IMG/VR virus record: IMGVR_UViG_3300045988_026856
Span: 1 to 44,632 of that record
Direction: 5' to 3' (one strand)
Length of the DNA stretch: 44,632 nucleotides
From: a virus
Lineage: Duplodnaviria > Heunggongvirae > Uroviricota > Caudoviricetes
Positions 344-44,632 of the stretch are shown piece by piece (positions within the stretch are counted from its first letter, which is position 1; each line of letters opens with the position of its first letter). Below the pieces are notes generated by a model, which saw only the letters and a list, made by a program, of their open reading frames with translations, was not told the DNA's origin and made no database searches. A program made the position numbers and the translations under genes.

Positions 344-634
344 TTACCGTTTAGCCAACCCTTCCAGCAAATTTTTATACTCTTCAAAATATTCCTCGAC
401 CAAATCATCGCCGAAATAGAAGTCGATATACTCGAGATTATCTCTTACGTTAAGCGATGCCGACATTGTGCTTAGTTGGCGTAAGCTAATTAGCTTCATT
501 TCTGTTTCTACGCAGAAAGGCCGGTAGGTATCAAGGTGGCAGGAGATGTTGAAGCATAAAGCGAACTCTCCGACCACGGAGTAGACCATATACACTTCGT
601 TTTCTGCCTTATTGTGGAAAATTACACCTTTCAT
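344..634 (-). CDS. hypothetical protein (96 aa)
   Basis: ORF track; AAGGAG RBS; start overlaps stop of upstream gene (ATGA). Confidence 0.55.
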   Translation of the reverse strand: MKGVIFHNKAENEVYMVYSVVGEFALCFNISCHLDTYRPFCVETEMKLISLRQLSTMSASLNVRDNLEYIDFYFGDDLVEEYFEEYKNLLEGLAKR

Positions 635-813
635 TTCACGTTCTCCTTAATCCATGCTTCAACTTTATTACGGTCAAATGTTCCTGGTAAACGGCGACCC
701 ATAACTTTAATACAGCAGTCAGGGAATTTGCCGCTGCGTAACCAGTTATTAATTGTCTGACGTGTCACCCCGATACGCTCGGCTACCTCATTCTGTGTCA
801 TGTAATGTTGCAT
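631..813 (-). CDS. AlpA/excisionase-like (MerR-type) HTH DNA-binding protein, 60 aa
   Basis: Start refined to internal Met (MQHYMTQNEVAERIGVTRQTINNWLRSGKFP...) with AGGAGA RBS; HTH_17/AlpA-like signature. Confidence 0.65.
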   Translation of the reverse strand: MQHYMTQNEVAERIGVTRQTINNWLRSGKFPDCCIKVMGRRLPGTFDRNKVEAWIKENVK

Positions 814-910: not shown

Positions 911-940
911 TTGAAAGTTCTTGACATGTGTTTGTATAAT
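911..940 (+). promoter_or_regulatory. sigma70-like promoter (TTGAAA-N18-TATAAT)
   Basis: Near-consensus hexamers; about 350 bp upstream of the first early ORF. Confidence 0.45.
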
Positions 941-967
941 GGTTTTGGGACTTGTATATATTACGGA

Positions 968-999
968 GTTGACGAACCCTCCCCGAGGGATTCGTCAAC
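968..999 (+). promoter_or_regulatory. long imperfect inverted repeat (GTTGACGAACCCTC...GAGGGATTCGTCAAC) just downstream of the 911..940 promoter
   Basis: About 14-bp stem with one bulge, read directly from sequence. Confidence 0.4.
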
Positions 1000-1139
1000 C
1001 CCTCCCAGACAGCTGAGATGCTTGCCCAACGGTTTAAGGATAAGTGTATCTAAATCTCATTTAAAGAAGTAACCAGCTGAAATATCTACTGTTTCTTAAT
1101 GTGCCGTAGATTCGCAACCGTAAAAATGTAACGATTATC

Positions 1140-1168
1140 GGGCGGGCCTTAAGGCCTGCCCTTTAGTT
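1140..1168 (+). terminator. putative intrinsic terminator (GGGCGGGCC-TTAA-GGCCTGCCC + TTTAGTT)
   Basis: 9-bp GC-rich stem (one G-U) followed by a U-rich tract, plus strand only. Confidence 0.45.
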
Positions 1169-1233
1169 ACCAAGTAATAAGAATAAAGGCACAACCCTAC
1201 CTGAAGAATCACAACGGCAACGTAACTATTCTC

Positions 1234-1262
1234 TTGCGCACCCCAACATAATAGGTTACTAT
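1234..1262 (+). promoter_or_regulatory. early promoter TTGCGC-N17-TACTAT with AATAG-N4-CTATT inverted repeat over the -10
   Basis: Near-identical copy at 21655..21683 (minus) and related copy at 2714..2742. Confidence 0.45.
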
Positions 1263-1296
1263 TCACTTATCGGAACGAAACAGAGGAGTGAGGGTT

Positions 1297-2713: not shown

Positions 2714-2742
2714 TTGCACACTGGGATAGAATAGGCTACTAT
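2714..2742 (+). promoter_or_regulatory. promoter TTGCAC-N17-TACTAT (same family as 1234..1262)
   Basis: Hexamers plus AATAGGCTACTATT inverted repeat; about 30 nt upstream of ORF at 2773. Confidence 0.4.
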
Positions 2743-2772
2743 TCATTTACACAAACGAGAGGAGAGACAGAG

Positions 2773-5275: not shown

Positions 5276-5540
5276 GTTATTCTGGTTCGGCGGTATGCTG
5301 GCAATCGGGGGTACATCGCTGTTTAATGTGTACCATCCCAGCGTTGATGACGGGTTATTCGGTCGGGTGCTCTATATCCTGACTGCTATCGTCTGCGCCG
5401 CCGGATGTATCCACCTGTTACAGGGCAGCGTGTCACCAACGCTGCCTGAGACATTAATCACATTAGTTGCGCTGCGCCAGATTCGTCAGGCGTGGCTGTC
5501 ATACGGAGGACATAAGCGTGTCTCGAAATATTTCAGATAA
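5268..5540 (+). CDS. second holin-like / antiholin-like membrane protein (2 TM, 90 aa)
   Basis: ATG after GAGGAGG RBS, overlaps holin stop; two hydrophobic helices. Confidence 0.5.
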   Translation: MNELFWFGGMLAIGGTSLFNVYHPSVDDGLFGRVLYILTAIVCAAGCIHLLQGSVSPTLPETLITLVALRQIRQAWLSYGGHKRVSKYFR

Positions 5541-6188: not shown

Positions 6189-6209
6189 TCTATTTTCTGT
6201 AATGACTAG

Positions 6210-6238
6210 TTGACTATTACCTTAGACCCTATTATATT
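6210..6238 (+). promoter_or_regulatory. sigma70-like promoter TTGACT-N17-TATATT
   Basis: Hexamers with 17-nt spacer just after the terminator. Confidence 0.45.
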
Positions 6239-12851: not shown

Positions 12852-13168
12852 AATGTCTGTTATTATTCCAGTTATTCCGCTCAATTGTAAATGTTGGAAT
12901 AAACTATTCGAATAGTTGACTTTTCACTAAAAATATGATAAGCTCCACCTGAGCTTGTGAAGTATGAACAAGCGACCGCGGCGCGGGCAGGTAACGGAGC
13001 GGGACGTAAGTCCTGAGTGTAGTTACGCTGACGCGTTCGGAAGGGCCATATTCTATTGCTTGTGTAAAAAGTAACTGGTTTACTGAGATTACGCCGTTTC
13101 TATGTTTAAATGATAAGGACTAGCGCCCCGCTTTAAGGCGGGGCTTTACTTATCAAGAAAGGGGAAAC

Positions 13169-21613: not shown

Positions 21614-21654
21614 GGGGTAGCTCCTGTTTGAGTTAACATTGTTGGTGTAAGTGA

Positions 21655-21683
21655 ATAGTATCCTATTATGTTGGGGTGTGCAA
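21655..21683 (-). promoter_or_regulatory. promoter TTGCAC-N17-TACTAT driving the minus-strand insert; near-identical to 1234..1262
   Basis: About 35-bp element shared with the early promoter at 1234..1262. Confidence 0.45.
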
Positions 21684-24904: not shown

Positions 24905-24940
24905 TAACAAAAAAAATAAGGCCCGAAAGGGCCTTATTTA
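24905..24940. terminator. bidirectional terminator (A8-TAAGGCCC-GAAA-GGGCCTTA-TTT)
   Basis: Stem-loop flanked by A-run and T-run between convergent genes. Confidence 0.65.
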
Positions 24941-25893
24941 TGCGGAACTTTAGGCTTCACTCCGTCCCTACAAAGGGCCAAAATCTCTGGAATTATCTTA
25001 GGGTCTGAGGTTAGCATCCACTCCGTGGATCCGTCGAAGCTGCCATAGCCCCACTCATTCGACGCTATTTTGTAAGTGTTATGGAAATACACTTCTAGCA
25101 TTCGTATTTTTGCGCCGTTATCGTCGCGATGAATGCCAAGCACTTCGAAACCAAAGGGGGTAGCGTTACGCAGGTGACGTATCCGCTGTTTAGGCCTGTT
25201 TGATAACCCTATCTTCACGAATCGGCCGCATTCACTAAGTAACGCATAGAGGAACCCAGTTTTATTAGGGTCGTACCCGCTAGAGGCACATCCAGGACAT
25301 CCTTGATTCTGATGAATGATATCTGCTATTCGCTGGCTAAACTCACCATGGATATCGCAAAGCCGCACCGCTTTGCTATACTGATTCTTATACCCTCCTT
25401 CGAAGCGCAAGAACTTCCACTTATCACTCACGGCGTAAATCTGCGAGATGCGTTCCTCCTCTGAGTATGAAGGTCTTCCCGCGCAACTAGGACACCCATG
25501 TTCCTTACTAATTGCGTTAGCTATCAAAGTGTCGAACTCCCCGTGTTCGGGACAGAGCCTACGTACCTTAGAATAGGCGTTTCGATAGCCGTTAGGAAAT
25601 CCTACAAAACTGTATTGCGGGGCTACCTTAGCTAGTTCCTCTACTACATTGCTCTCAGGTTTTCGCTGTTTGCTTGATGAAGATTCTTTTCCACACCTAG
25701 GGCACCCAATACCTTTTTTAATACTAGCGGCCGTTGCCGAGAAAGCCCCATGTTCGCGGCAAAATAGGGTTATCTTACTAAACGCACCTGTATACCCCGC
25801 ACCATCGTCCAACAACTCGTATTTACCGCCGTGGTTGGCTAAATCAGCTAATATCCTCTCGCGGCGCTCAGGCCATAGTATTTTCCGGCACAT
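24934..25893 (-). CDS. three zinc-ribbon repeats fused to a C-terminal GIY-YIG-like (T5orf172-type) domain
   Basis: Three repeats of YSK..LC..HGEF...(7-9)...GCP.C; C-terminal GFLYAL...VKIGLSNRPKQRIRHL...GSTEWM; start refined to ATG at 25893 with GAGGT RBS. Confidence 0.7.
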   Translation of the reverse strand: MCRKILWPERRERILADLANHGGKYELLDDGAGYTGAFSKITLFCREHGAFSATAASIKKGIGCPRCGKESSSSKQRKPESNVVEELAKVAPQYSFVGFPNGYRNAYSKVRRLCPEHGEFDTLIANAISKEHGCPSCAGRPSYSEEERISQIYAVSDKWKFLRFEGGYKNQYSKAVRLCDIHGEFSQRIADIIHQNQGCPGCASSGYDPNKTGFLYALLSECGRFVKIGLSNRPKQRIRHLRNATPFGFEVLGIHRDDNGAKIRMLEVYFHNTYKIASNEWGYGSFDGSTEWMLTSDPKIIPEILALCRDGVKPKVPHK

Positions 25894-25923
25894 AATCAAC
25901 CTCAATAAAGAGTATTAACTAGT

Positions 25924-25952
25924 ATACTATTCAACCATGGGGCCCGGGTCAA
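25924..25952 (-). promoter_or_regulatory. sigma70-like promoter TTGACC-N17-TAGTAT for the 24934..25893 gene
   Basis: Hexamers on minus strand about 30 nt upstream of the start. Confidence 0.4.
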
Positions 25953-33461: not shown

Positions 33462-34882
33462 TTCTTACCTCGTCTCTTCATGTAATTAAGCAATTCTTCC
33501 TGGACCGATTTCTTCTCGTCAGTACGCGCGGCAACAACCTCGTCCAGCGTGTCTTTAGCAACGATGTGGTAAAGGAATACCGGGCGCTCGTGTCCCGCCT
33601 GTTTCTGGCGTACCGGGCCTATACGCTCAACGACCTGCAAATAGTGCTCAAGGTTCCAGCCTTGTGAAATAAACGCCAGATGATGCCCACCGTCCTGTAA
33701 ATTGAGGCCGTGGCCCGCTGACGCCGGATGTACGCATAAGATTTCGATTTCACCGCGGTTCCACGCTTCCATCTGCTTATTGCCCTTAGCACCTTTTGCA
33801 AACGCCTGGGCTTGAGGGAATCGCTTAAGGATACGTTCCAGTTCGTGCTTGAACTGATAGGCGACCAGTAGCGGTGCGCCCTGTAACTCCTCGACAATGG
33901 ACTCAAGCGCATCCAGTTTCGTATCGTGCACTTTCTCCCAGTCTTTGGTTGCTTCTCCGTCCGGCCCCGACACATACACGGCACCAGATGCAATCTGCAA
34001 ACACTTCGACGTCTTCGCCGCTGCGTTAGCTGCTTCAACTTCTCCGCTCTCCAGTTCTGCAAATAGCTTCTCCTCCATATCTATGTACGCCTGACGCGCT
34101 TTCTTCGGCAGGTCGATTTCAACCGGTACGATAATCGGCGCTTCACAACCGAACCACTCAGCGGCGTCAATCGTGAGACTAATGTCCTTCATCTTCTGGT
34201 GAATCTCAGTATCCGCGCCCGGGCGGGCGTGATACTCTCGTGCCATAGCGGACTTACCCTTCTGTACCGAATTAAACCAGCGGTCGGTGAACGCGGTGTA
34301 TGAAGAACCCAGGCGCTCGCCAGCGTCGATAAACCAGTTCTGGCCCCACAGGTCTTTGAGGCCATTTGGTGATGGCGTACCGGTAAGGTTGATGAAACGC
34401 TTAACCTTACCGAATGCCACTTTACTAAGCGCCTTTGCCCGCTTGCTGCCACCTGAACGGCTACGGAAAGATTTCAGTTTCGTGCTTTCATCGGCAACAA
34501 TAACCGTAAAAGGCCAGTCGTCTTTGCCGTAGTAGTCAATCAGCCACTCGATAACTTCGTAGTTAGTGCACACCACGTTAGCATCTGACTCCAGCGCCGC
34601 GATGCGGCGCTTCTCTGAACCGGTCGCATCTACGACACGCAGACACGGGAAACCCCACTTAGTTTGTTCTGAGGGCCATGTGCCGGACGCAACACGTAAA
34701 GGGGCCAGAATTAACACTCTGTCGCCGTCGTTAAGCTGACCATTACGGAACAGCCTGTTCAACGCCCACAGTACGCTGCCAGTCTTCCCGGCGCCCATGC
34801 TTGCCCAAATATTACAGCGAGGGTGCTGCAACATGAACGAAGTCATGAGCTTTTGGTACTCGCGCCTTTGGAACCTACTCAT
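33458..34882 (-). CDS. SF2 (SNF2/DEAD-like) helicase
   Basis: Walker A GAGKTG and DEST box (VIVADESTKLK). Confidence 0.8.
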   Translation of the reverse strand: MSRFQRREYQKLMTSFMLQHPRCNIWASMGAGKTGSVLWALNRLFRNGQLNDGDRVLILAPLRVASGTWPSEQTKWGFPCLRVVDATGSEKRRIAALESDANVVCTNYEVIEWLIDYYGKDDWPFTVIVADESTKLKSFRSRSGGSKRAKALSKVAFGKVKRFINLTGTPSPNGLKDLWGQNWFIDAGERLGSSYTAFTDRWFNSVQKGKSAMAREYHARPGADTEIHQKMKDISLTIDAAEWFGCEAPIIVPVEIDLPKKARQAYIDMEEKLFAELESGEVEAANAAAKTSKCLQIASGAVYVSGPDGEATKDWEKVHDTKLDALESIVEELQGAPLLVAYQFKHELERILKRFPQAQAFAKGAKGNKQMEAWNRGEIEILCVHPASAGHGLNLQDGGHHLAFISQGWNLEHYLQVVERIGPVRQKQAGHERPVFLYHIVAKDTLDEVVAARTDEKKSVQEELLNYMKRRGKK

Positions 34883-35669
34883 TTACCGCCCCCATGAATG
34901 CCTTTATAAATTCAGCGGCTACTTGCGGGACGATGGCATTGCCGTAACCGCGCAATCGTCCCACTCTGGCGGGTACCCCATTAGCCAGCGGGAATGTGCT
35001 GGGTTCAACTGGCCTGAATTTCCCATCCCGGCATCCGAGCCAGTCAGCATCTGACCAGAACCCGTTAGGCGGATTGGCTGTGCCAGAGATGCCTCTGTTT
35101 GCAGATTGTGGCCCCCGTTCCTGCCCTGATGGCCTGCTCCCGCCGAGTTGTTCGCACACGGTGTTGGCCAGTTGCTGCGCTCCGAAGAACAATCGATTCC
35201 TTTTGTGCGGTGCGCCGACGCTACAAGCTGGGAGTACGGCAAACCCGACGGCGTAGTCTTCTCTTTCCAGGTGAGTTTGTAAATCGCACATCCACGATTT
35301 TGCAATTGCTGCCGCAACCTGCTCCCCAAAGATAACTGGAGGGCGGCACTCGCTGATGAGGTCGAGGAACACAGGTGCGAGGTGTCTCTGGTCGAACTGT
35401 CCGAGTTGCTTTCCTGCCGTGCTAAACGGTTGGCAAGGCGGGCTTCCCGTCCAGAGAGGCGCATCTTCCGGAACTCCAGCAAGTCTGAGCGCGAGAGGCC
35501 AGCCGCCGATACCAGCGAAAAAATGACACTGGGTGAACCCGTCAAGGTCTTCTGGTCTAACTTCGGTAATGCTTCTTTCATCTACAACTCCAAAAGGTAT
35601 GTGACCCTGTTTTATTAATTCACGCAGCCACGCGGCTGCGCCTTTATCCCATTCGTTGTAATAGTTCAT
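34875..35669 (-). CDS. DNA (cytosine-5)-methyltransferase, orphan
   Basis: Motif I FAGIGG, motif IV PCQPFS, HKRNR, C-terminal GNAIVPQV; no restriction partner nearby. Confidence 0.8.
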
Positions 35670-35857
35670 TTTGCCACCAGAACTAACTCTTTACGCCCGA
35701 ACGCTGTAACATTGCCTGTTACATCTTCGATGACCAGTTTACCGTTCGACTCGACGAACACCGTATCAACGGCAACAGGACGACGGGTCTTAACGCTGAA
35801 AATCATGTCGCCCGGTACGATGTCACGTGCTGGCTTGCGGTCATATTCGTGTTTCAT
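35666..35857 (-). CDS. hypothetical protein (63 aa)
   Basis: ORF track; ATGA-coupled. Confidence 0.45.
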   Translation of the reverse strand: MKHEYDRKPARDIVPGDMIFSVKTRRPVAVDTVFVESNGKLVIEDVTGNVTAFGRKELVLVAK

Positions 35858-35887: not shown

Positions 35888-36175
35888 TTAACTATAATAG
35901 CTCGCTATTAGGTCGTCAACCTGTTTAAACGAACCAACGACAAAAACATTTGCACCACGTTTGCTCATCCGCTCGTGCTCTCGTAGCTGATGCGGGTCTG
36001 GCTTCGTGTTTTCGTCTTTCTTAACCTCGACAAACCAGACTATGCCGCCTGGGAGAATTACCAGCAGGTCAGGAGCGCCCGCTCTATTTTCGTAGGAAAG
36101 TTTACGAACGAGGCCGCCAATGGCCTCGAATTGCTCTTTTGCGTATTTCTGCACACGCCCCTCAGGCGTACTCAT
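35888..36175 (-). CDS. VRR-NUC domain nuclease
   Basis: GAPDLLVILPGGIVWFVEVKK...Q motif. Confidence 0.7.
   Translation of the reverse strand: MSTPEGRVQKYAKEQFEAIGGLVRKLSYENRAGAPDLLVILPGGIVWFVEVKKDENTKPDPHQLREHERMSKRGANVFVVGSFKQVDDLIASYYS
35891..35919 (-). promoter_or_regulatory. promoter TTGACG-N17-TATAGT with AATAG-N4-CTATT in spacer
   Basis: Same family as 39845..39873 and 42178..42206. Confidence 0.45.
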
Positions 36176-39844: not shown

Positions 39845-39873
39845 ACTATAATAGCTAACTATTCAGGTGTCAA
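39845..39873 (-). promoter_or_regulatory. promoter TTGACA-N17-TATAGT with AATAG-N4-CTATT
   Basis: Consensus -35, 17-nt spacer. Confidence 0.45.
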
Positions 39874-41636: not shown

Positions 41637-42146
41637 TTATTCTTCTTCGAAATACTTGTTCTTGATTGCTGTCAGGCGTTCCAGGTACTCGGCCAGGTCT
41701 TCGTCTTTAATCGCGGCAATCTTCATCTTCTTACCTGTGAACTCTTCCAGCAGTTCATCAGAATCGTCGCACGCGGCATCGCTCGGACCTTCGTTAATTG
41801 CATCGTCGATAGCCTGAATCTGGTCACGAAGAGACTGGTAATCGACCTCTTCTTTCTCTTCTTCTGGTTCTGGCGTCGACTCCTCTACTTTAGCTTTACG
41901 CTGCTTACGTTTTGGCTTCTCTTCTTCTGCCGGTTTAGTGTCGACGATGTCTTCACCTTCTACCGGGATTTCTTTCCCGATACCAGTGCCTGGGTCGACT
42001 TCAAGTACCTCCCCCGTAACCGATACGTCTACAAGCATTTCACCTACATGCTCAGTTGGGGCCACAGGACGTTTTGCACTGTTCGCAGCAATCAGTTCAT
42101 GTGCAACTACGAAACGTTCCAGTAATACTAAGAATTTCTCTAACAT
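41637..42146 (-). CDS. highly acidic protein (169 aa), first gene of the leftward operon
   Basis: D/E-rich C-terminal half; immediately downstream of tandem promoters. Confidence 0.55.
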   Translation of the reverse strand: MLEKFLVLLERFVVAHELIAANSAKRPVAPTEHVGEMLVDVSVTGEVLEVDPGTGIGKEIPVEGEDIVDTKPAEEEKPKRKQRKAKVEESTPEPEEEKEEVDYQSLRDQIQAIDDAINEGPSDAACDDSDELLEEFTGKKMKIAAIKDEDLAEYLERLTAIKNKYFEEE

Positions 42147-42177
42147 TTGTTTCTCTCCTCTCGTTTGGTATGGGCTA

Positions 42178-42206
42178 ACTATAATAGTGAACTATTCACA
42201 TGTCAA
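42178..42206 (-). promoter_or_regulatory. promoter TTGACA-N17-TATAGT with AATAGTTCACTATT palindrome
   Basis: Consensus -35, 17-nt spacer. Confidence 0.5.
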
Positions 42207-42221
42207 TGGGCTTTTCTAAAA

Positions 42222-42250
42222 TAATTAATATGGTACTATTCACATATCAA
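42222..42250 (-). promoter_or_regulatory. second tandem copy (TTGATA-N17-TAATTA); promoter or operator
   Basis: 16-bp direct repeat of ACTATTCACAT(G/A)TCAA 44 bp from the first copy. Confidence 0.3.
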
Positions 42251-42270
42251 CTGACTAAGGAGTAACTGAC

Positions 42271-42486
42271 ATGCAACCATCTGAATTAGGCATCCGTGTA
42301 GAACAACGCCGTAAAGAACTCGGCATCTCCCAGCGCCGTCTGGCGGTGCTGACCGGGGTTTCCCAGGGCGCAATTAACCAGCTGGCACTTGGGGTAACCC
42401 AGGACGTCCGCCCGGCAACGCTGTTTAAACTGGCGGAAGTGCTGGAGGTAGACGCCAAGTGGCTGGCGCTAGGTGAAGGGGCTTAA
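42271..42486 (+). CDS. XRE-family (Cro/CI-type) HTH regulator
   Basis: LGISQRRLAVLTGVSQGAINQL HTH; AGGAG RBS. Confidence 0.7.
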   Translation: MQPSELGIRVEQRRKELGISQRRLAVLTGVSQGAINQLALGVTQDVRPATLFKLAEVLEVDAKWLALGEGA

Positions 42487-42500
42487 TGCCCCTTTCTTTT
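42478..42500 (+). terminator. intrinsic terminator (GGGGC-TTAAT-GCCCC + TTTCTTTTT)
   Basis: Stem overlapping the XRE stop codon. Confidence 0.45.
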
Positions 42501-42503
42501 TAC

Positions 42504-44632
42504 CTACTCCAAATCCTCTTCTGTCACTATCAGCATCTCATTCGGTTCGTATAGTGTCTTCGGCCTTAATCTATCCCCTATTCTTTCGGGTATACGATAT
42601 GTTCTCGGTACTACTTCGCCGTTAGCATCGCAACCAAGCATTAGTTCTCCATCTTTCAACATTTTATCAAGATGGGTGTTAGTCACAGAGAAGTCACCGG
42701 AACGAGCCACTATCTGCTGCTGAGTAAAACCACGACCTGTATCATCTGACTGTTGCAGGTCTTCCAGTGCCGAAAGTATTGACTCCTTCCTTACCTCATC
42801 CCTGCCGCGTTTAACTTCTTCCTTTACTTTTTGTTTACCTTCGTTAGTTAGCCCTTCTTCCCGCTCTTTCTCCTCGTCAGTTTTGAACGGTTCGAAACCC
42901 CACGGCATCAGCACAAGCGCTTTGTGCGGCTCCGGCAGGTCGAGGTTTACGATTGTGCCATATTCCTCTGTGTTACCCAGGAACTCAACCGCACGGTACT
43001 CTTTCGGCGGCGGGGCTTCACGGAACTGTACAGACTCCAGCACCATGCCAACCGTCTTCTGTTGAGGCCCGTGCTTAAATTTAGAGTGGTATACGTTTAT
43101 CTGACGGTCGGTCGCGCGTTCGATTGTCAGTTCCACGTCGACCCCCGCATACAGAGCGCCACTACCACGGGCTTTCTTTCCGCCCTTCGGCGTATGGTGA
43201 ACAACGCCTACCGCGGCTTTAGTCGCGTCGCGTACTTCTTTCAGGATAGCGATAACTTTGCCCATACCGATTGCCGTTGATGAACTGTTCTCGTCGAACT
43301 TATCAATCGTCAGGGCCAGGGTCTGGTTAAGGGTGTCGAACGCAACCATGCCGATAGGTTCATCGCCCGCAGTTTCGCGCATTAACTTAATCAGGCTTTT
43401 CAGTTTGCCGACTTCACCCATATCAATGACATGTACATAATCTTTACCTTCCACGCCGTATTTAGCCGCGAGTGCATCAATACGGGTGCGCGTAGCAGCA
43501 CCACCTTCGCCATCAATATAGAAATGGTGGCAACGCTGTGTATCAGCCCCTGCGAACCGGTATCCCGCCGCGCTAAGGTACATCATCCCCAGCGTATAGA
43601 ACGATTTGTACGTGCCAGATTCCCCGACAATATCCCATATACAATCCGACGGCATGTACCCTTCAACGACGAAATCAGCCTTTACCGGTTCCGGTAACTC
43701 GTCCTCCTCTGAGTCCTCGTCGTCTTCCAGGTCGTACAGGCTGCAAGTTACAGGATCCTCGTTCTCTGCGCGGTGTAGTTCTTCAATCTCTTCATCCGGT
43801 AAATCAGGCAAAGCAGCACGAATGCTGTTAATGCTAATAGGTTGCTTGTCTACGTTAAGCTCGTCCGGAAGGCCGCACATACGCAGGGCCAAATGTTGTC
43901 GGCGGTTAAGCTCGGTGCAGGCACCGTTGTTCGTATGCTGGCATACAAAGCGCACTTCTTTGCCGTCGAGCATGATGCTGGTGGAGCCTTTGCCGGTGTG
44001 CAGATGCTCATTAGGGCATGGCACTTCATACCCTCGACCGGAAGATAAAGCGTCAAGGCCCAGCTCGGCTTCGCAGAAATGCGCTATATCTGCGTTAAGC
44101 CCGTGCTCATCGGCGGCAAGTGTCTTAGCTTCGCGTTTACGCAGCCCCATCTCTTCTGCTTTCTTGATGTACCGCTCCGCACGTATAACACGCCCTTCTG
44201 TAACAGTTATCTTCGACTCTTTATGTGGCAGGTAGATAAGGCGGTTGCCATCTTCTGTGCAGTGGTCACGCAAGGCCTCGTCTATTTCCAACTCTGCACA
44301 AATAGCACGTTGCACCATCCACGCATCGTTAGAGTTAAACGGCGTGCGAGCCGGAACCAGAACGCGGAATGCGTAATCACCGTTTTTACACGCGTGCTGA
44401 TGCGACGCCGTTGTATGCAGAATATTGAAGAACGGTGCGTTCTTGAATTTGCGTATCAGGTCGCGGTACTGAGTACGGTTGAGATGGTCAAAGTCGAACT
44501 TAACCACACTGTCTTCCAGGATAGCGTTCTTACGGCGACCACCAACAGGCGCAATTGCTTTCTGCTTAATCTTGGCCGCGTCGTACTCTTCCTTAGTCCA
44601 CGACGGGTCTACGGACAAACGCTTCGATGTAT
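42504..44632 (-). CDS. DNA primase/helicase (N-terminal primase-like region with zinc-binding motif plus RecA/DnaB-like ATPase); 5' end continues at 56..149
   Basis: Walker A GESGTYKS, Walker B-like MVAFDTL; C..H...C..H motif; ORF open through the window junction. Confidence 0.75.
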   Translation of the reverse strand, partial: TSKRLSVDPSWTKEEYDAAKIKQKAIAPVGGRRKNAILEDSVVKFDFDHLNRTQYRDLIRKFKNAPFFNILHTTASHQHACKNGDYAFRVLVPARTPFNSNDAWMVQRAICAELEIDEALRDHCTEDGNRLIYLPHKESKITVTEGRVIRAERYIKKAEEMGLRKREAKTLAADEHGLNADIAHFCEAELGLDALSSGRGYEVPCPNEHLHTGKGSTSIMLDGKEVRFVCQHTNNGACTELNRRQHLALRMCGLPDELNVDKQPISINSIRAALPDLPDEEIEELHRAENEDPVTCSLYDLEDDEDSEEDELPEPVKADFVVEGYMPSDCIWDIVGESGTYKSFYTLGMMYLSAAGYRFAGADTQRCHHFYIDGEGGAATRTRIDALAAKYGVEGKDYVHVIDMGEVGKLKSLIKLMRETAGDEPIGMVAFDTLNQTLALTIDKFDENSSSTAIGMGKVIAILKEVRDATKAAVGVVHHTPKGGKKARGSGALYAGVDVELTIERATDRQINVYHSKFKHGPQQKTVGMVLESVQFREAPPPKEYRAVEFLGNTEEYGTIVNLDLPEPHKALVLMPWGFEPFKTDEEKEREEGLTNEGKQKVKEEVKRGRDEVRKESILSALEDLQQSDDTGRGFTQQQIVARSGDFSVTNTHLDKMLKDGELMLGCDANGEVVPRTYRIPERIGDRLRPKTLYEPNEMLIVTEEDLE
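44578..44632. repeat. 55-bp terminal copy identical to 1..55
   Basis: Direct comparison. Confidence 0.9.

What the first reader, a model, noticed from the sequence alone, without database searches (positions are those of the whole stretch)
42147..42500. Divergent regulatory switch: XRE regulator facing tandem operator-like repeats in a genome without integrase
The only plus-strand gene in the replication half is an XRE HTH protein (42271..42486) with its own terminator. It is divergent from tandem 16-bp direct repeats ACTATTCACAT(G/A)TCAA (42191..42206, 42235..42250) that coincide with the leftward early promoters. Together with the AlpA-like HTH at 631..813 this suggests a repressor/anti-repressor-type early switch even though no lysogeny genes are present.
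Basis: partly seen in the sequence, partly recalled or inferred. Interest (0 to 1): 0.4.

Follow-up and report, generated by a model that had tools for sequence, protein, structure and literature searches.

The report
Cro-like repressor with genome-wide promoter operators
The two "direct repeats" beside this lytic phage's small XRE gene are two copies of a 14-bp palindromic operator found inside about ten of the phage's promoters, so the gene most likely encodes a 434-Cro-like repressor that turns down early and replication-gene transcription, not a lysogeny switch.

Summary
The window is a near-complete Kagunavirus (Guernseyvirinae) genome. There is a 71-aa HTH_3 gene at 42271..42486 with its own terminator. 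The two 16-mers are exact at the stated coordinates. A near-consensus leftward promoter overlies repeat 1.

The conserved unit is not the direct repeat. It is a 14-bp palindrome, AATAG-N4-CTATT, at 42183-42196 and, with one mismatch, at 42227-42240.

The palindrome occurs 6 times perfectly (0.02 expected) and 13 times with at most 1 mismatch (1.15 expected). Nearly all copies lie inside sigma-70-type promoters of early, replication and moron genes. The arms are invariant and the centre variable in 36/36 Kagunavirus loci. Jerseyvirus keeps the arms. Pantoea phage AH01 changes them at its sites (AATAC/GTATT, 5 perfect copies). Cornellvirus uses ATTAS/STAWT.

The protein aligns end to end with phage 434 Cro. 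More distant homologues that are CI-type repressors sit beside OR/OL-like arrays of the same AWTAS-N4-STAWT palindromes.

Best reading: a stand-alone Cro-like, autoregulated repressor of dispersed promoters in a phage that shows no CI or integrase. Binding is inferred, not shown. No evidence supports an anti-repressor role for the AlpA-like gene.

The parts
42271..42486 (+). XRE/HTH_3 gene, 71 aa, 434-Cro-like; putative repressor. Recognition helix is SQGAINQL, residues 31-38.
   Evidence: HTH_3 2.3e-12; full-length alignment to 434 Cro, E 8e-6; five-helix model with pLDDT 85; 2cro TM 0.77/0.83 at 36% identity.
42257..42262 (+). Shine-Dalgarno AAGGAG, 8 nt before the ATG
   Evidence: Conserved in 36 Kagunavirus loci and in Jerseyvirus.
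42475..42501 (+). Intrinsic terminator of the XRE transcript: AAGGGGC-UUAAU-GCCCCUU hairpin followed by a U-run. The stop codon lies in the loop.
42183..42196 (.). Operator O1, perfect palindrome AATAG-TGAA-CTATT, lying in the spacer of the leftward promoter.
   Evidence: Arms invariant in 36/36 Kagunavirus loci.
42178..42206 (-). Leftward promoter P_L1, TTGACA-17-TATAGT (11/12). It drives the 169-aa gene, the 92-aa gene and the DUF2800 nuclease.
   Evidence: The same promoter is present in Jerseyvirus, AH01 and Cornellvirus.
42227..42240 (.). Operator O2, AATAT-GGTA-CTATT, one mismatch. The mismatch T is the T of the extended -10 TG. The site overlaps the XRE gene's own promoter.
   Evidence: 36/36 loci
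42231..42239 (+). Probable XRE promoter, extended -10 TGgTACTAT. No good -35 in this genus; Jerseyvirus has TTGCAC-17-TACTAT at the same place.
   Evidence: Read. TG and TACTAT are invariant while the middle base is G/A/C. Inference only; no TSS data.
41637..42146 (-). First gene of the leftward unit in this window: acidic 169-aa protein, PHROG 3127, function unknown
39845..39873 (-). Promoter TTGACA-17-TATAGT (11/12) with a perfect operator at 39850-39863, upstream of the ssDNA-binding protein and DNA polymerase genes
35891..35919 (-). Promoter TTGACG-17-TATAGT (10/12) with a perfect operator at 35896-35909, upstream of 35666..35857, the C5-methylase gene and the SNF2-type helicase gene
21655..21683 (-). 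Promoter TTGCAC-17-TACTAT with a perfect operator at 21654-21667 covering the -10, upstream of the Imm_superinfect gene and the metallophosphatase-like gene
   Evidence: Hexamers read by eye.
1234..1263 (+). Promoter TTGCGC-17-TACTAT with a perfect operator at 1250-1263, about 35 nt before the first rightward small gene
2714..2743 (+). Promoter TTGCAC-17-TACTAT with a perfect operator at 2730-2743, about 30 nt before the gene starting at 2773
25918..25952 (-). Promoter TTGACC-17-TAGTAT with an operator-like site at 25918-25931 (1 mismatch), upstream of the inserted 323-aa CapR/MUG113 gene
12911..12944 (+). Operator-like site at 12911-12924 (1 mismatch) overlapping the -35 of TTGACT-17-TGaTAAGCT
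6205..6238 (+). Operator-like site at 6205-6218 (1 mismatch) overlapping the -35 of TTGACT-17-TATATT (10/12)

Best explanation
Proposed mechanism:
- The 71-aa XRE protein is a 434-Cro-like, single-domain HTH repressor.
- As a dimer it binds 14-bp palindromic operators, AATAG-N4-CTATT, embedded in the core of host-RNA-polymerase (sigma-70-type) promoters.
- Perfect operators lie between -35 and -10, or over the -10, of three leftward replication/recombination promoters (42183, 39850, 35896), two rightward early-gene promoters (1250, 2730) and the Imm/nuclease operon promoter (21654).
- Weaker copies lie at a few moron promoters and over the XRE gene's own extended -10 promoter (42227).
- As XRE accumulates after infection it occludes RNA polymerase at these promoters. 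This turns down early and DNA-metabolism transcription, and at higher occupancy its own synthesis. Cro does the same at PL/PR in lambdoid lytic growth.
- There is no CI partner and no integrase, so the circuit sets timing or dosage. It is not a lysis-lysogeny switch.

Shown computationally: the fold and family of the protein; the existence, enrichment, promoter context and conservation pattern of the palindromes; and the operator arrays of homologous CI repressors.

Inferred: binding, dimerisation, repression, order of occupancy and timing.
For: 1. Enrichment. AATAG-N4-CTATT occurs 6 times perfectly against 0.02 expected, and 13 times with at most 1 mismatch against 1.15 expected, using dinucleotide shuffles. 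It is the top non-terminator 5-N4-5 inverted repeat in the window and in fBC-Eco01.

2. Promoter context. The sites lie inside promoter-like elements about 30-45 nt upstream of start codons. The register relative to -35/-10 differs between promoter classes: in the spacer, over the -10, or over the -35. The palindrome is therefore the common denominator, not a by-product of one promoter sequence.

3. Footprint. In 36/36 Kagunavirus loci both arms of O1 and O2 are invariant across 27 and 12 distinct variants. The second N4 position and the bases beyond CTATTCA vary, including indels.

4. Same geometry in other genera.
- Jerseyvirus keeps AATAG/CTATT.
- Pantoea AH01 has 5 perfect AATAC-N4-GTATT copies, 10 with at most 1 mismatch against 1.0 expected, including both sites flanking its XRE gene.
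- Cornellvirus uses ATTAS-N4-STAWT.
- The family-level motif AWTAS-N4-STAWT gives 6, 6, 8 and 5 perfect hits against 0.5-0.7 expected in the four genomes.
- Jerseyvirus and Cornellvirus both infect Salmonella yet differ in motif, which argues against a host factor.

5. Conserved candidate. XRE is the only HTH gene tested that is found in all four lineages. It always sits between a good site on the leftward promoter and a site on its own promoter.

6. Link between protein and site. More distant homologues (HTH_3 plus Peptidase_S24, CI type) have all their perfect AWTAS-N4-STAWT sites in lambdoid-style arrays. Two or three sites lie at -62/-38/-14 from the repressor start with a 24-bp period. 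A second pair spaced 24-25 bp lies elsewhere in the locus. Repressors with helix QGAIGH (L111, L113) and the 64-aa L117 protein (QGAISH) carry AATAC/GTATT or ATTAC/GTAAT arms, as AH01 (QGGIGH) does genome-wide. L115, with the same QGAIGH helix, instead carries AATAG-N4-GTATT.

7. Protein. It aligns end to end with 434 Cro, which is also 71 aa (E 8e-6). The model is a five-helix XRE fold; 2cro gives TM 0.77/0.83 at 36% identity. 434 operators are also 14 bp (established knowledge).
Against: No binding, transcript or TSS data exist for any Guernseyvirinae phage in the searched literature.

Kagunavirus and Jerseyvirus share operator arms although their XRE recognition helices differ at four positions (SQGAINQL versus SQSLITHL). 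They also share an 82%-identical AlpA-like HTH, so correlation alone does not exclude that protein.

No simple residue-to-base code emerged. His at helix position 7 goes with a C inner base in AH01 but with G in Jerseyvirus.

The right arm overlaps -10-like sequence, so part of the conservation is owed to RNA polymerase.

The promoters of the TTGCAC-17-TACTAT class share about 40 nt beyond the operator (ACCCCAAYAT). That could mean recent duplication or a second factor.

The temporal class of the regulated genes is unknown.
Confidence: 0.65

Rival explanations
1. The repeated motif is only a promoter signature: a family of duplicated promoter cassettes read by host, or phage-modified, RNA polymerase. 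No repressor binds it, and XRE regulates something else or only itself.
For: The right arm overlaps -10-like hexamers (TATAGT, TACTAT). PHIRE found the same repeats in fBC-Eco01, and the authors called them phage promoters with consensus tgAATAGTa-ccTATTat-T. The TTGCAC-17-TACTAT copies share about 40 nt, as duplicates would.
Against: The left arm has no known role in RNA polymerase recognition, yet it is as invariant as the right arm. The palindrome sits in different registers relative to -35/-10. The inner arm base differs in AH01 at its sites, which include promoters of at least two classes. The same palindromes form OR/OL arrays beside homologous CI repressors. No RNA polymerase gene is annotated in any relative, and no ORF of that kind is present in the window.
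Confidence: 0.12
2. A different phage protein binds the palindromes: the AlpA-like HTH_17 protein (634..813) or an unrecognised DNA-binding protein. XRE has a narrower role.
For: Kagunavirus and Jerseyvirus share both the AATAG/CTATT arms and an 82%-identical AlpA-like protein, while their XRE proteins are only 48% identical.
Against: No AlpA-like homologue is detectable in AH01 or Cornellvirus (tblastn, E up to 1), yet both keep operator-in-promoter sites flanking XRE. Xis/RDF-type HTH proteins characteristically bind direct repeats one helical turn apart, not 14-bp palindromes (PMC7498355 abstract). The CI-type XRE homologues tie this HTH_3 subfamily to AWTAS-N4-STAWT sites.
Confidence: 0.1
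3. Two tandem 16-bp direct repeats are the operators of a local divergent switch, in which XRE is the repressor and the AlpA-like protein the anti-repressor.
For: The repeats are real and 15/16 identical in this window. Both overlap -35-like hexamers on the minus strand.
Against: In other Kagunaviruses the repeat at site 1 keeps only ACTATTCA plus the -35. The bases between vary in sequence and length. The symmetric left half, AATAG, is conserved but lies outside the repeats. Sites are genome-wide. There is no evidence of any XRE-AlpA interaction, and AlpA is missing in two genera.
Confidence: 0.05
4. XRE is a remnant or functional immunity repressor that lets the phage establish a carrier or pseudolysogenic state, that is, a CI-like maintenance function.
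For: Many records annotate the gene as 'repressor' or 'DicA'. Dispersed operators over lytic promoters recall the temperate phage P1 C1 regulon (from memory).
Against: The protein is 71 aa with no oligomerisation or S24 domain. No integrase, partition or CI-type gene was found. The subfamily is described as virulent (and other papers). The repressor also represses its own promoter, with no sign of positive autoregulation.
Confidence: 0.05

Closest known systems
Phage 434 Cro (and the 434 repressor N-terminal domain) with the 14-bp operators of OR/OL
   Same: Same length (71 aa) and five-helix HTH_3 fold. The sequences align end to end at 36-40% identity. Operators are 14-bp palindromes with contacted outer arms and a non-conserved centre. 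The operators overlap divergent early promoters, and the protein's own promoter is among the targets. In Cornellvirus and AH01 the gene heads the rightward operon that contains the replication primase-helicase, as cro does.
   Different: The operator sequence differs: AATAG-N4-CTATT rather than ACAA-N6-TTGT. There is no CI partner, no tripartite OR and no lysogeny module. The two local sites are 44 bp apart rather than adjacent. At least nine further sites are dispersed over the genome. In this window the gene is monocistronic, has its own terminator, and converges on the inverted primase-helicase gene.
CI-type (HTH_3 plus Peptidase_S24) repressors of temperate phages related to Bordetella BPP-1 cI and others (IMG/VR loci L104-L115)
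   Same: Homologous HTH domain with a similar recognition helix, (S/T)Q(G/S)xIxxL. The operator geometry and arms are identical: AWTAS-N4-STAWT.
   Different: Those proteins carry a C-terminal S24 domain. They sit in cI-cro modules with operators at a 24-bp period, and they maintain lysogeny. The window protein is the bare DNA-binding domain in a lytic phage.
Dispersed-operator regulons of temperate phages: P1 C1 repressor, and the mycobacteriophage L5 gp71 'stoperators' (recalled from memory, not tested here)
   Same: One phage repressor has many single operators scattered through the genome, each overlapping or following a promoter of lytic functions.
   Different: Those repressors maintain lysogeny, belong to other protein families, and recognise asymmetric sites. 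Here the sites are palindromic, the protein is Cro-like, and the phage is virulent.
Restriction-modification controller (C) proteins such as C.BclI and C.AhdI
   Same: Small XRE-fold dimers among the best structural matches. They bind palindromic sites in their own promoter and act as timing devices.
   Different: They work mainly by concentration-dependent activation followed by repression of a single operon. Sequence identity is only 20-28%.

Membership tests
XRE / Cro-C1-type HTH (Pfam HTH_3, PF01381) | Significant match to the HTH_3 profile above the curated cutoff | tested here: met
   47.2 bits against a cutoff of 23, E 2.3e-12, residues 11-65. PHROG 4 and PHROG 8 'transcriptional repressor/regulator'.
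434-Cro-like single-domain repressor | About 60-75 aa, five-helix fold with no additional domain, alignable over its full length to 434 Cro | tested here: met
   residues 6-68 against 4-64 of 1zug, E 8e-6; helices at 5-17, 21-28, 32-39, 48-57 and 62-66; 2cro TM 0.77/0.83.
434-Cro-like single-domain repressor | Binds as a dimer to about 14-bp palindromic operators overlapping early promoters, including its own | not testable with these tools
   Indirect support only: enriched 14-bp palindromes in promoters and operator arrays beside CI-type homologues.
434-Cro-like single-domain repressor | First gene of the rightward early operon, divergent from the leftward early operon | tested here: inconclusive
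   Divergent from the leftward unit in all genera. It heads the primase-helicase operon in Cornellvirus and AH01. In this window it is monocistronic with its own terminator.
CI-type maintenance repressor | C-terminal oligomerisation / S24 self-cleavage domain | tested here: not met
   71 aa with only the HTH_3 domain. Homologues that do have S24 are 226-260 aa.
Lysis-lysogeny switch | Partner repressor (CI) plus an integrase or other prophage-maintenance genes in the genome | tested here: not met
   None among the ORFs scanned or in the annotations of relatives. PMC9825357 reports none. Not every small ORF was scanned.
Xis/AlpA-type HTH_17 (gene 634..813) | Match to HTH_17 or an excisionase-family profile | tested here: met
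   HTH_17 at 35.1 bits against a cutoff of 27. PHROG 66 at 3.6e-11.
   No homologue in AH01 or Cornellvirus, although both keep XRE and its operators. Interaction is not testable here.
Phage-RNA-polymerase promoter (published reading of the motif) | A phage-encoded RNA polymerase | tested here: not met
   No such gene is annotated in fBC-Eco01, phi135, AH01 or Shemara. The largest window ORFs lie in the tail-gene block (851, 779 and 745 aa, by position and relatives' annotation) or are PolA and the AAA_25 primase-helicase homologue.
Sigma-70-type promoter (elements carrying the operators) | -35 and -10 hexamers with a 16-18 bp spacer | tested here: met
   11/12, 11/12 and 10/12 matches at 42206..42178, 39873..39845 and 35919..35891. 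The TTGCAC-17-TACTAT class falls below the scan threshold and was read by eye. There are no TSS data.

The most novel reading that the evidence does not exclude
The Cro-like repressor and its roughly ten operator-bearing promoters may act as a transcriptional 'immunity group' among strictly virulent phages. A cell already infected would hold enough XRE to silence the early and replication promoters of a superinfecting relative with the same operators. Divergence of operator arms between lineages, including Jerseyvirus and Cornellvirus on the same Salmonella hosts, would then reflect selection for heteroimmunity between competing lytic phages. Incoming morons and homing-endonuclease genes would acquire the operator-promoter cassette to fit the resident timing programme.
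Probability: 0.15. Interest if true: 0.7.

Novelty: new variant of a known kind. Interest (0 to 1): 0.45.

Why it matters
Jerseyvirus and Kagunavirus phages are among the most frequently isolated candidates for Salmonella and E. coli phage therapy and biocontrol. Their conserved 'repressor' gene is routinely flagged in safety and lifestyle screens.

Three consequences follow from reading it as a Cro-type lytic regulator with a defined operator and regulon:
- It explains why a 'repressor' sits in a genome without lysogeny genes.
- It revises a published reading of the motif as a phage-RNA-polymerase promoter.
- It gives a first testable map of the transcription programme of the subfamily, naming which promoters are under phage control and which are not.

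It also supplies compact promoter-operator parts and a matching small repressor for engineering these phages. In addition, it offers a natural series of operator and recognition-helix variants in the 434-like HTH family.

Tried and rejected
1. The + strand promoter proposed by the scan (TTCACA-16-TAAAAT, 42195..42222). Its -35 lies in the hypervariable stretch and is not conserved. I prefer the invariant TGnTACTAT.

2. A second leftward promoter at repeat 2 (TTGATA-18-AATTAT, 9/12). It is weak, and in Jerseyvirus and Cornellvirus the position holds the rightward XRE promoter.

3. A residue-to-base recognition code, Gln versus His at helix position 7 against a G versus C inner arm base. It holds for Kagunavirus, AH01 and some CI homologues but fails for Jerseyvirus, so no claim is made.

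4. VSiP and TS6 as possible mosaics that swap the XRE allele within one genus. Both proved to be Cornellvirus-type, so they give no such test.

5. The genome-contig scan with the XRE alignment used only a C-terminal pattern. It returned distant, uninformative hits.

6. Literature searches for transcription or repressor studies of Guernseyvirinae found only genome reports. One search was too broad to be useful.

7. Rfam found nothing in the window.

The single-sequence model was adequate.

9. Bidirectional-promoter symmetry as the source of the palindrome. This was rejected on geometry: the arm centres are 9 bp apart, whereas by my recollection of published work (not tested here) the -10 elements of bidirectional promoters almost completely overlap.
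Full report
**What the window is.** The region 41600-42700 matches 438 phage records at 80-95% identity. Almost all are Escherichia Kagunavirus and Salmonella Jerseyvirus of the subfamily Guernseyvirinae. The 44.6-kb window is essentially a whole Kagunavirus genome. Its gene order matches the annotated relative fBC-Eco01.

**Checking the observation.**
- ORF: 42271..42486 (+) encodes 71 aa, with AAGGAG 8 nt upstream. It matches HTH_3 at 2.3e-12.
- Terminator: the ORF ends in a hairpin plus T-run at 42475-42501.
The similarity extends to 25 nt.
- Chance: with up to 3 mismatches the 16-mer gives 4 hits against 0.46 expected. All four are in intergenic regions.
- Promoters: on the minus strand repeat 1 is the -35 and spacer of TTGACA-17-TATAGT, 11/12. 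Repeat 2 gives only a 9/12 match.
- Strand layout: XRE is the only credible + strand gene in the replication half.
- AlpA-like gene: 634..813 is an HTH_17 / PHROG 66 protein.

**What the repeats really are.**
- ACTATTC is over-represented, 14 copies against 4.5 expected. Aligning the copies showed an inverted repeat, (T/G)AATAG-N4-CTATT(C/A).
- A blind count of all 5-Nx-5 inverted repeats puts AATAG-N4-CTATT first among non-terminator palindromes in the window (6 perfect) and in fBC-Eco01 (7 perfect).
- Against dinucleotide shuffles, 6 perfect copies compare with 0.02 expected. Thirteen copies with at most 1 mismatch compare with 1.15 expected.
Each repeat continues through CA, two variable bases and a -35-like hexamer.
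- In 36 further Kagunavirus genomes from IMG/VR, O1 and O2 are present in 36/36. Both arms are invariant over 27 and 12 distinct sequence variants. The second central base varies. The 2-3 nt between CTATTCA and TGTCAA vary in sequence and in length.
- The conserved unit is therefore the palindrome. The 15/16 identity of the 16-mers in this window is partly incidental.

**Context of the sites.** All six perfect sites, and at least five of the seven one-mismatch sites, lie in promoter-like elements 30-45 nt upstream of start codons. There are three registers.
- (A) Operator in the spacer, right arm abutting the -10. TTGAC(A/G)-17-TATAGT at 42206..42178, 39873..39845 and 35919..35891. These are the three strongest leftward promoters of the replication/recombination module.
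- (B) Operator over the -10. TTGC(A/G)C-17-TACTAT at 1234-1262, 2714-2742 and 21683..21655. TTGACC-17-TAGTAT at 25952..25924 is similar. Hexamers in this class were read by eye.
- (C) Operator over the -35. TTGACT promoters at 6210 and 12916.

Downstream genes include:
- the 169-aa acidic protein and the DUF2800 nuclease;
- the Enc34-type ssDNA-binding protein and PolA;
- a C5 methylase and an SNF2-type helicase;
- an Imm_superinfect protein and a metallophosphatase-like protein;
- the rightward small early genes;
- an inserted CapR/MUG113 gene.

O2 covers TGgTACTAT (42231-42239). In that element TG and TACTAT are invariant while the middle base is G, A or C across Kagunaviruses. Jerseyvirus has TTGCAC-17-TACTAT, and AH01 has TTGCCG-18-TATAGT, at the same place. 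I read this as the XRE gene's own extended -10 promoter. The single operator mismatch is the T of the TG. The strong rightward promoter at 911..940 and the likely promoter of the AlpA-like/primase-helicase unit carry no palindrome.

**Other genera.**
- Jerseyvirus phi135 keeps AATAG/CTATT: 3 perfect copies, 9 with at most 1 mismatch against 1.0 expected.
- Pantoea phage AH01 has AATAC-N4-GTATT instead: 5 perfect, 10 with at most 1 mismatch against 1.0 expected. These include both sites flanking its XRE gene and promoters of at least two of these classes.
- Cornellvirus (Shemara, VSiP) carries ATTAS-N4-STAWT at its corresponding promoters.
- The degenerate motif AWTAS-N4-STAWT gives 6, 6, 8 and 5 perfect hits against 0.47-0.71 expected in the four genomes.

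A change that recurs at many unlinked sites implies a trans-acting, sequence-specific, two-fold symmetric binding protein. Jerseyvirus and Cornellvirus share Salmonella hosts yet differ in motif, so the factor is more likely phage-encoded.

**Which protein?** XRE is the only HTH gene tested that is found in all four lineages. The AlpA-like gene has no detectable homologue in AH01 or Cornellvirus. XRE always sits between a strong site on the leftward promoter and a site on its own promoter.

The best link comes from more distant homologues in IMG/VR.
- Nine are HTH_3 proteins of 217-260 aa; the six scanned against Pfam also carry Peptidase_S24, that is, CI type.
- In each locus of 4-20 kb, every perfect AWTAS-N4-STAWT site falls in one of two places. 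One is an OR-like array just upstream of the repressor gene, at -62/-38/-14 with a 24-bp period. The other is a pair spaced 24-25 bp elsewhere in the locus.
- Repressors L111 and L113 (helix QGAIGH) and the 64-aa L117 protein (QGAISH) use AATAC/GTATT and ATTAC/GTAAT arms. These are the arms that AH01 (QGGIGH) uses genome-wide. L115 (also QGAIGH) is an exception, with AATAG-N4-GTATT.

The window protein aligns end to end with the 71-aa phage 434 Cro (E 8e-6). A single-sequence model (pLDDT 85) has the five-helix XRE fold. 434 Cro is among the top structural matches and has the highest identity of them. 434 operators are likewise 14 bp with contacted outer arms (established knowledge).

**Most likely mechanism.** XRE, made from its own promoter, binds as a dimer to the operators and blocks host RNA polymerase. 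It acts at the replication/recombination promoters, at two early rightward promoters and at several moron promoters. At its imperfect operator it blocks its own promoter. This is a Cro-type turn-down and autoregulation circuit in a phage where no CI or integrase was found.

In Cornellvirus and AH01 the gene heads the rightward operon that contains the primase-helicase. This mirrors PR-cro-replication in lambdoid phages. In Kagunavirus and Jerseyvirus the primase-helicase gene is inverted and converges on XRE.

The sequence facts above are shown. Binding, dimerisation, repression and timing are inferred. I put 0.65 on this model.

**Caveats and rivals.**
- Kagunavirus and Jerseyvirus share operator arms although their XRE recognition helices differ (SQGAINQL against SQSLITHL). 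They also share the AlpA-like protein. On correlation alone that protein cannot be excluded. However, it is absent from two genera that keep the system, and RDF-type HTH proteins bind direct repeats one turn apart (PMC7498355).
- Part of the right arm is -10 sequence. Even so, a pure promoter-signature reading does not explain the invariant left arm, the different registers, the concerted change in AH01, or the CI-linked arrays.
- The published description of the motif in fBC-Eco01 as promoters for a phage-encoded RNA polymerase (PMC9825357) conflicts with the absence of any such gene.

**Novelty.** The gene is routinely annotated 'transcriptional repressor', and the motif has been reported once under another interpretation. 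In the literature I could search, nothing links the two, identifies the palindrome as an operator, or describes the regulon and its genus-specific variants.

The mechanism belongs to the Cro/CI HTH-operator kind. The variant features are a stand-alone Cro-like protein in a strictly lytic subfamily, and operators dispersed over about ten promoters rather than clustered in an immunity region.

Noticed in passing
window 911-1263: A near-consensus rightward promoter (TTGAAA-18-TATAAT, 11/12, 911..940) carries no operator. It is followed by a strong hairpin (969-1000) and a terminator-like hairpin (1140-1161) before the operator-bearing promoter at 1234-1262. This gives a roughly 350-nt non-coding leader of unknown function, with no Rfam match.
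   Followed up: partly
window 12903-12944: A perfect 14-bp palindrome, ACTATTCGAATAGT (two CTATT-type half-sites head to head), overlaps an operator-like site at 12911-12924 and a TTGACT-17-TGaTAAGCT promoter. It lies in the gap between head-gene blocks.
   Followed up: partly
window 24934-25952: A 323-aa minus-strand gene with a CapR/DUF723 zinc-ribbon and a weak MUG113 (T5orf172) match is inserted between the tape-measure and distal tail genes. It is absent from fBC-Eco01. It has its own promoter (TTGACC-17-TAGTAT) carrying an operator-like site. It is probably a mobile nuclease-type gene that has adopted the phage's promoter-operator cassette.
   Followed up: partly
window 41637-42177; loci L053-L088: The first gene downstream of the leftward promoter is a variable slot. 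In 34 of 36 Kagunavirus loci where the script called a first ORF, it is either the 156-178-aa acidic MLEKF-type protein directly (21 loci), or one of at least five different small ORFs (37-75 aa, judged by N-terminal sequence and length only) in 13 loci. In XY1 such an ORF lies between the promoter and the acidic-protein gene.
   Followed up: partly
window 42197-42200 and the same position in L003-L038: A 2-3 nt hypervariable stretch with indels lies between the operator and the -35 of the leftward promoter. It toggles the promoter spacer between 17 and 18 bp in an otherwise nearly invariant 120-bp region.
   Followed up: no
window 1234-1249, 2714-2729, 21668-21683; also Jerseyvirus L048 near 5480-5500: The TTGCAC-17-TACTAT promoters share a conserved block (ACCCCAAYAT) upstream of the operator. 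It is present in both Kagunavirus and Jerseyvirus. It is either an extra recognition element or a trace of cassette duplication.
   Followed up: no
window 42475-42504: The XRE terminator has its T-run only on the + strand. The convergent primase-helicase transcript (42504..44618, minus strand) has no obvious intrinsic terminator. It may therefore read antisense through XRE into the leftward unit.
   Followed up: no
L046/L049 (Pantoea AH01), L050 (Shemara), L051 (VSiP), L052 (TS6): In Cornellvirus and AH01 the primase-helicase gene is co-directional with XRE and downstream of it. In Kagunavirus and Jerseyvirus it is inverted and converges on XRE. An inversion of this block therefore separates the genera.
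   Followed up: partly
literature: PMC9825357 (fBC-Eco01): The paper reports the same motif (tgAATAGTa-ccTATTat-T, seven copies) as promoters used by a phage-encoded RNA polymerase, although no such gene is annotated in that genome.
   Followed up: yes
window 34878-35669: A C-5 cytosine DNA methylase domain protein (PF00145, 1.9e-16) lies within the leftward replication module, downstream of the operator-bearing promoter at 35919..35891.
   Followed up: no
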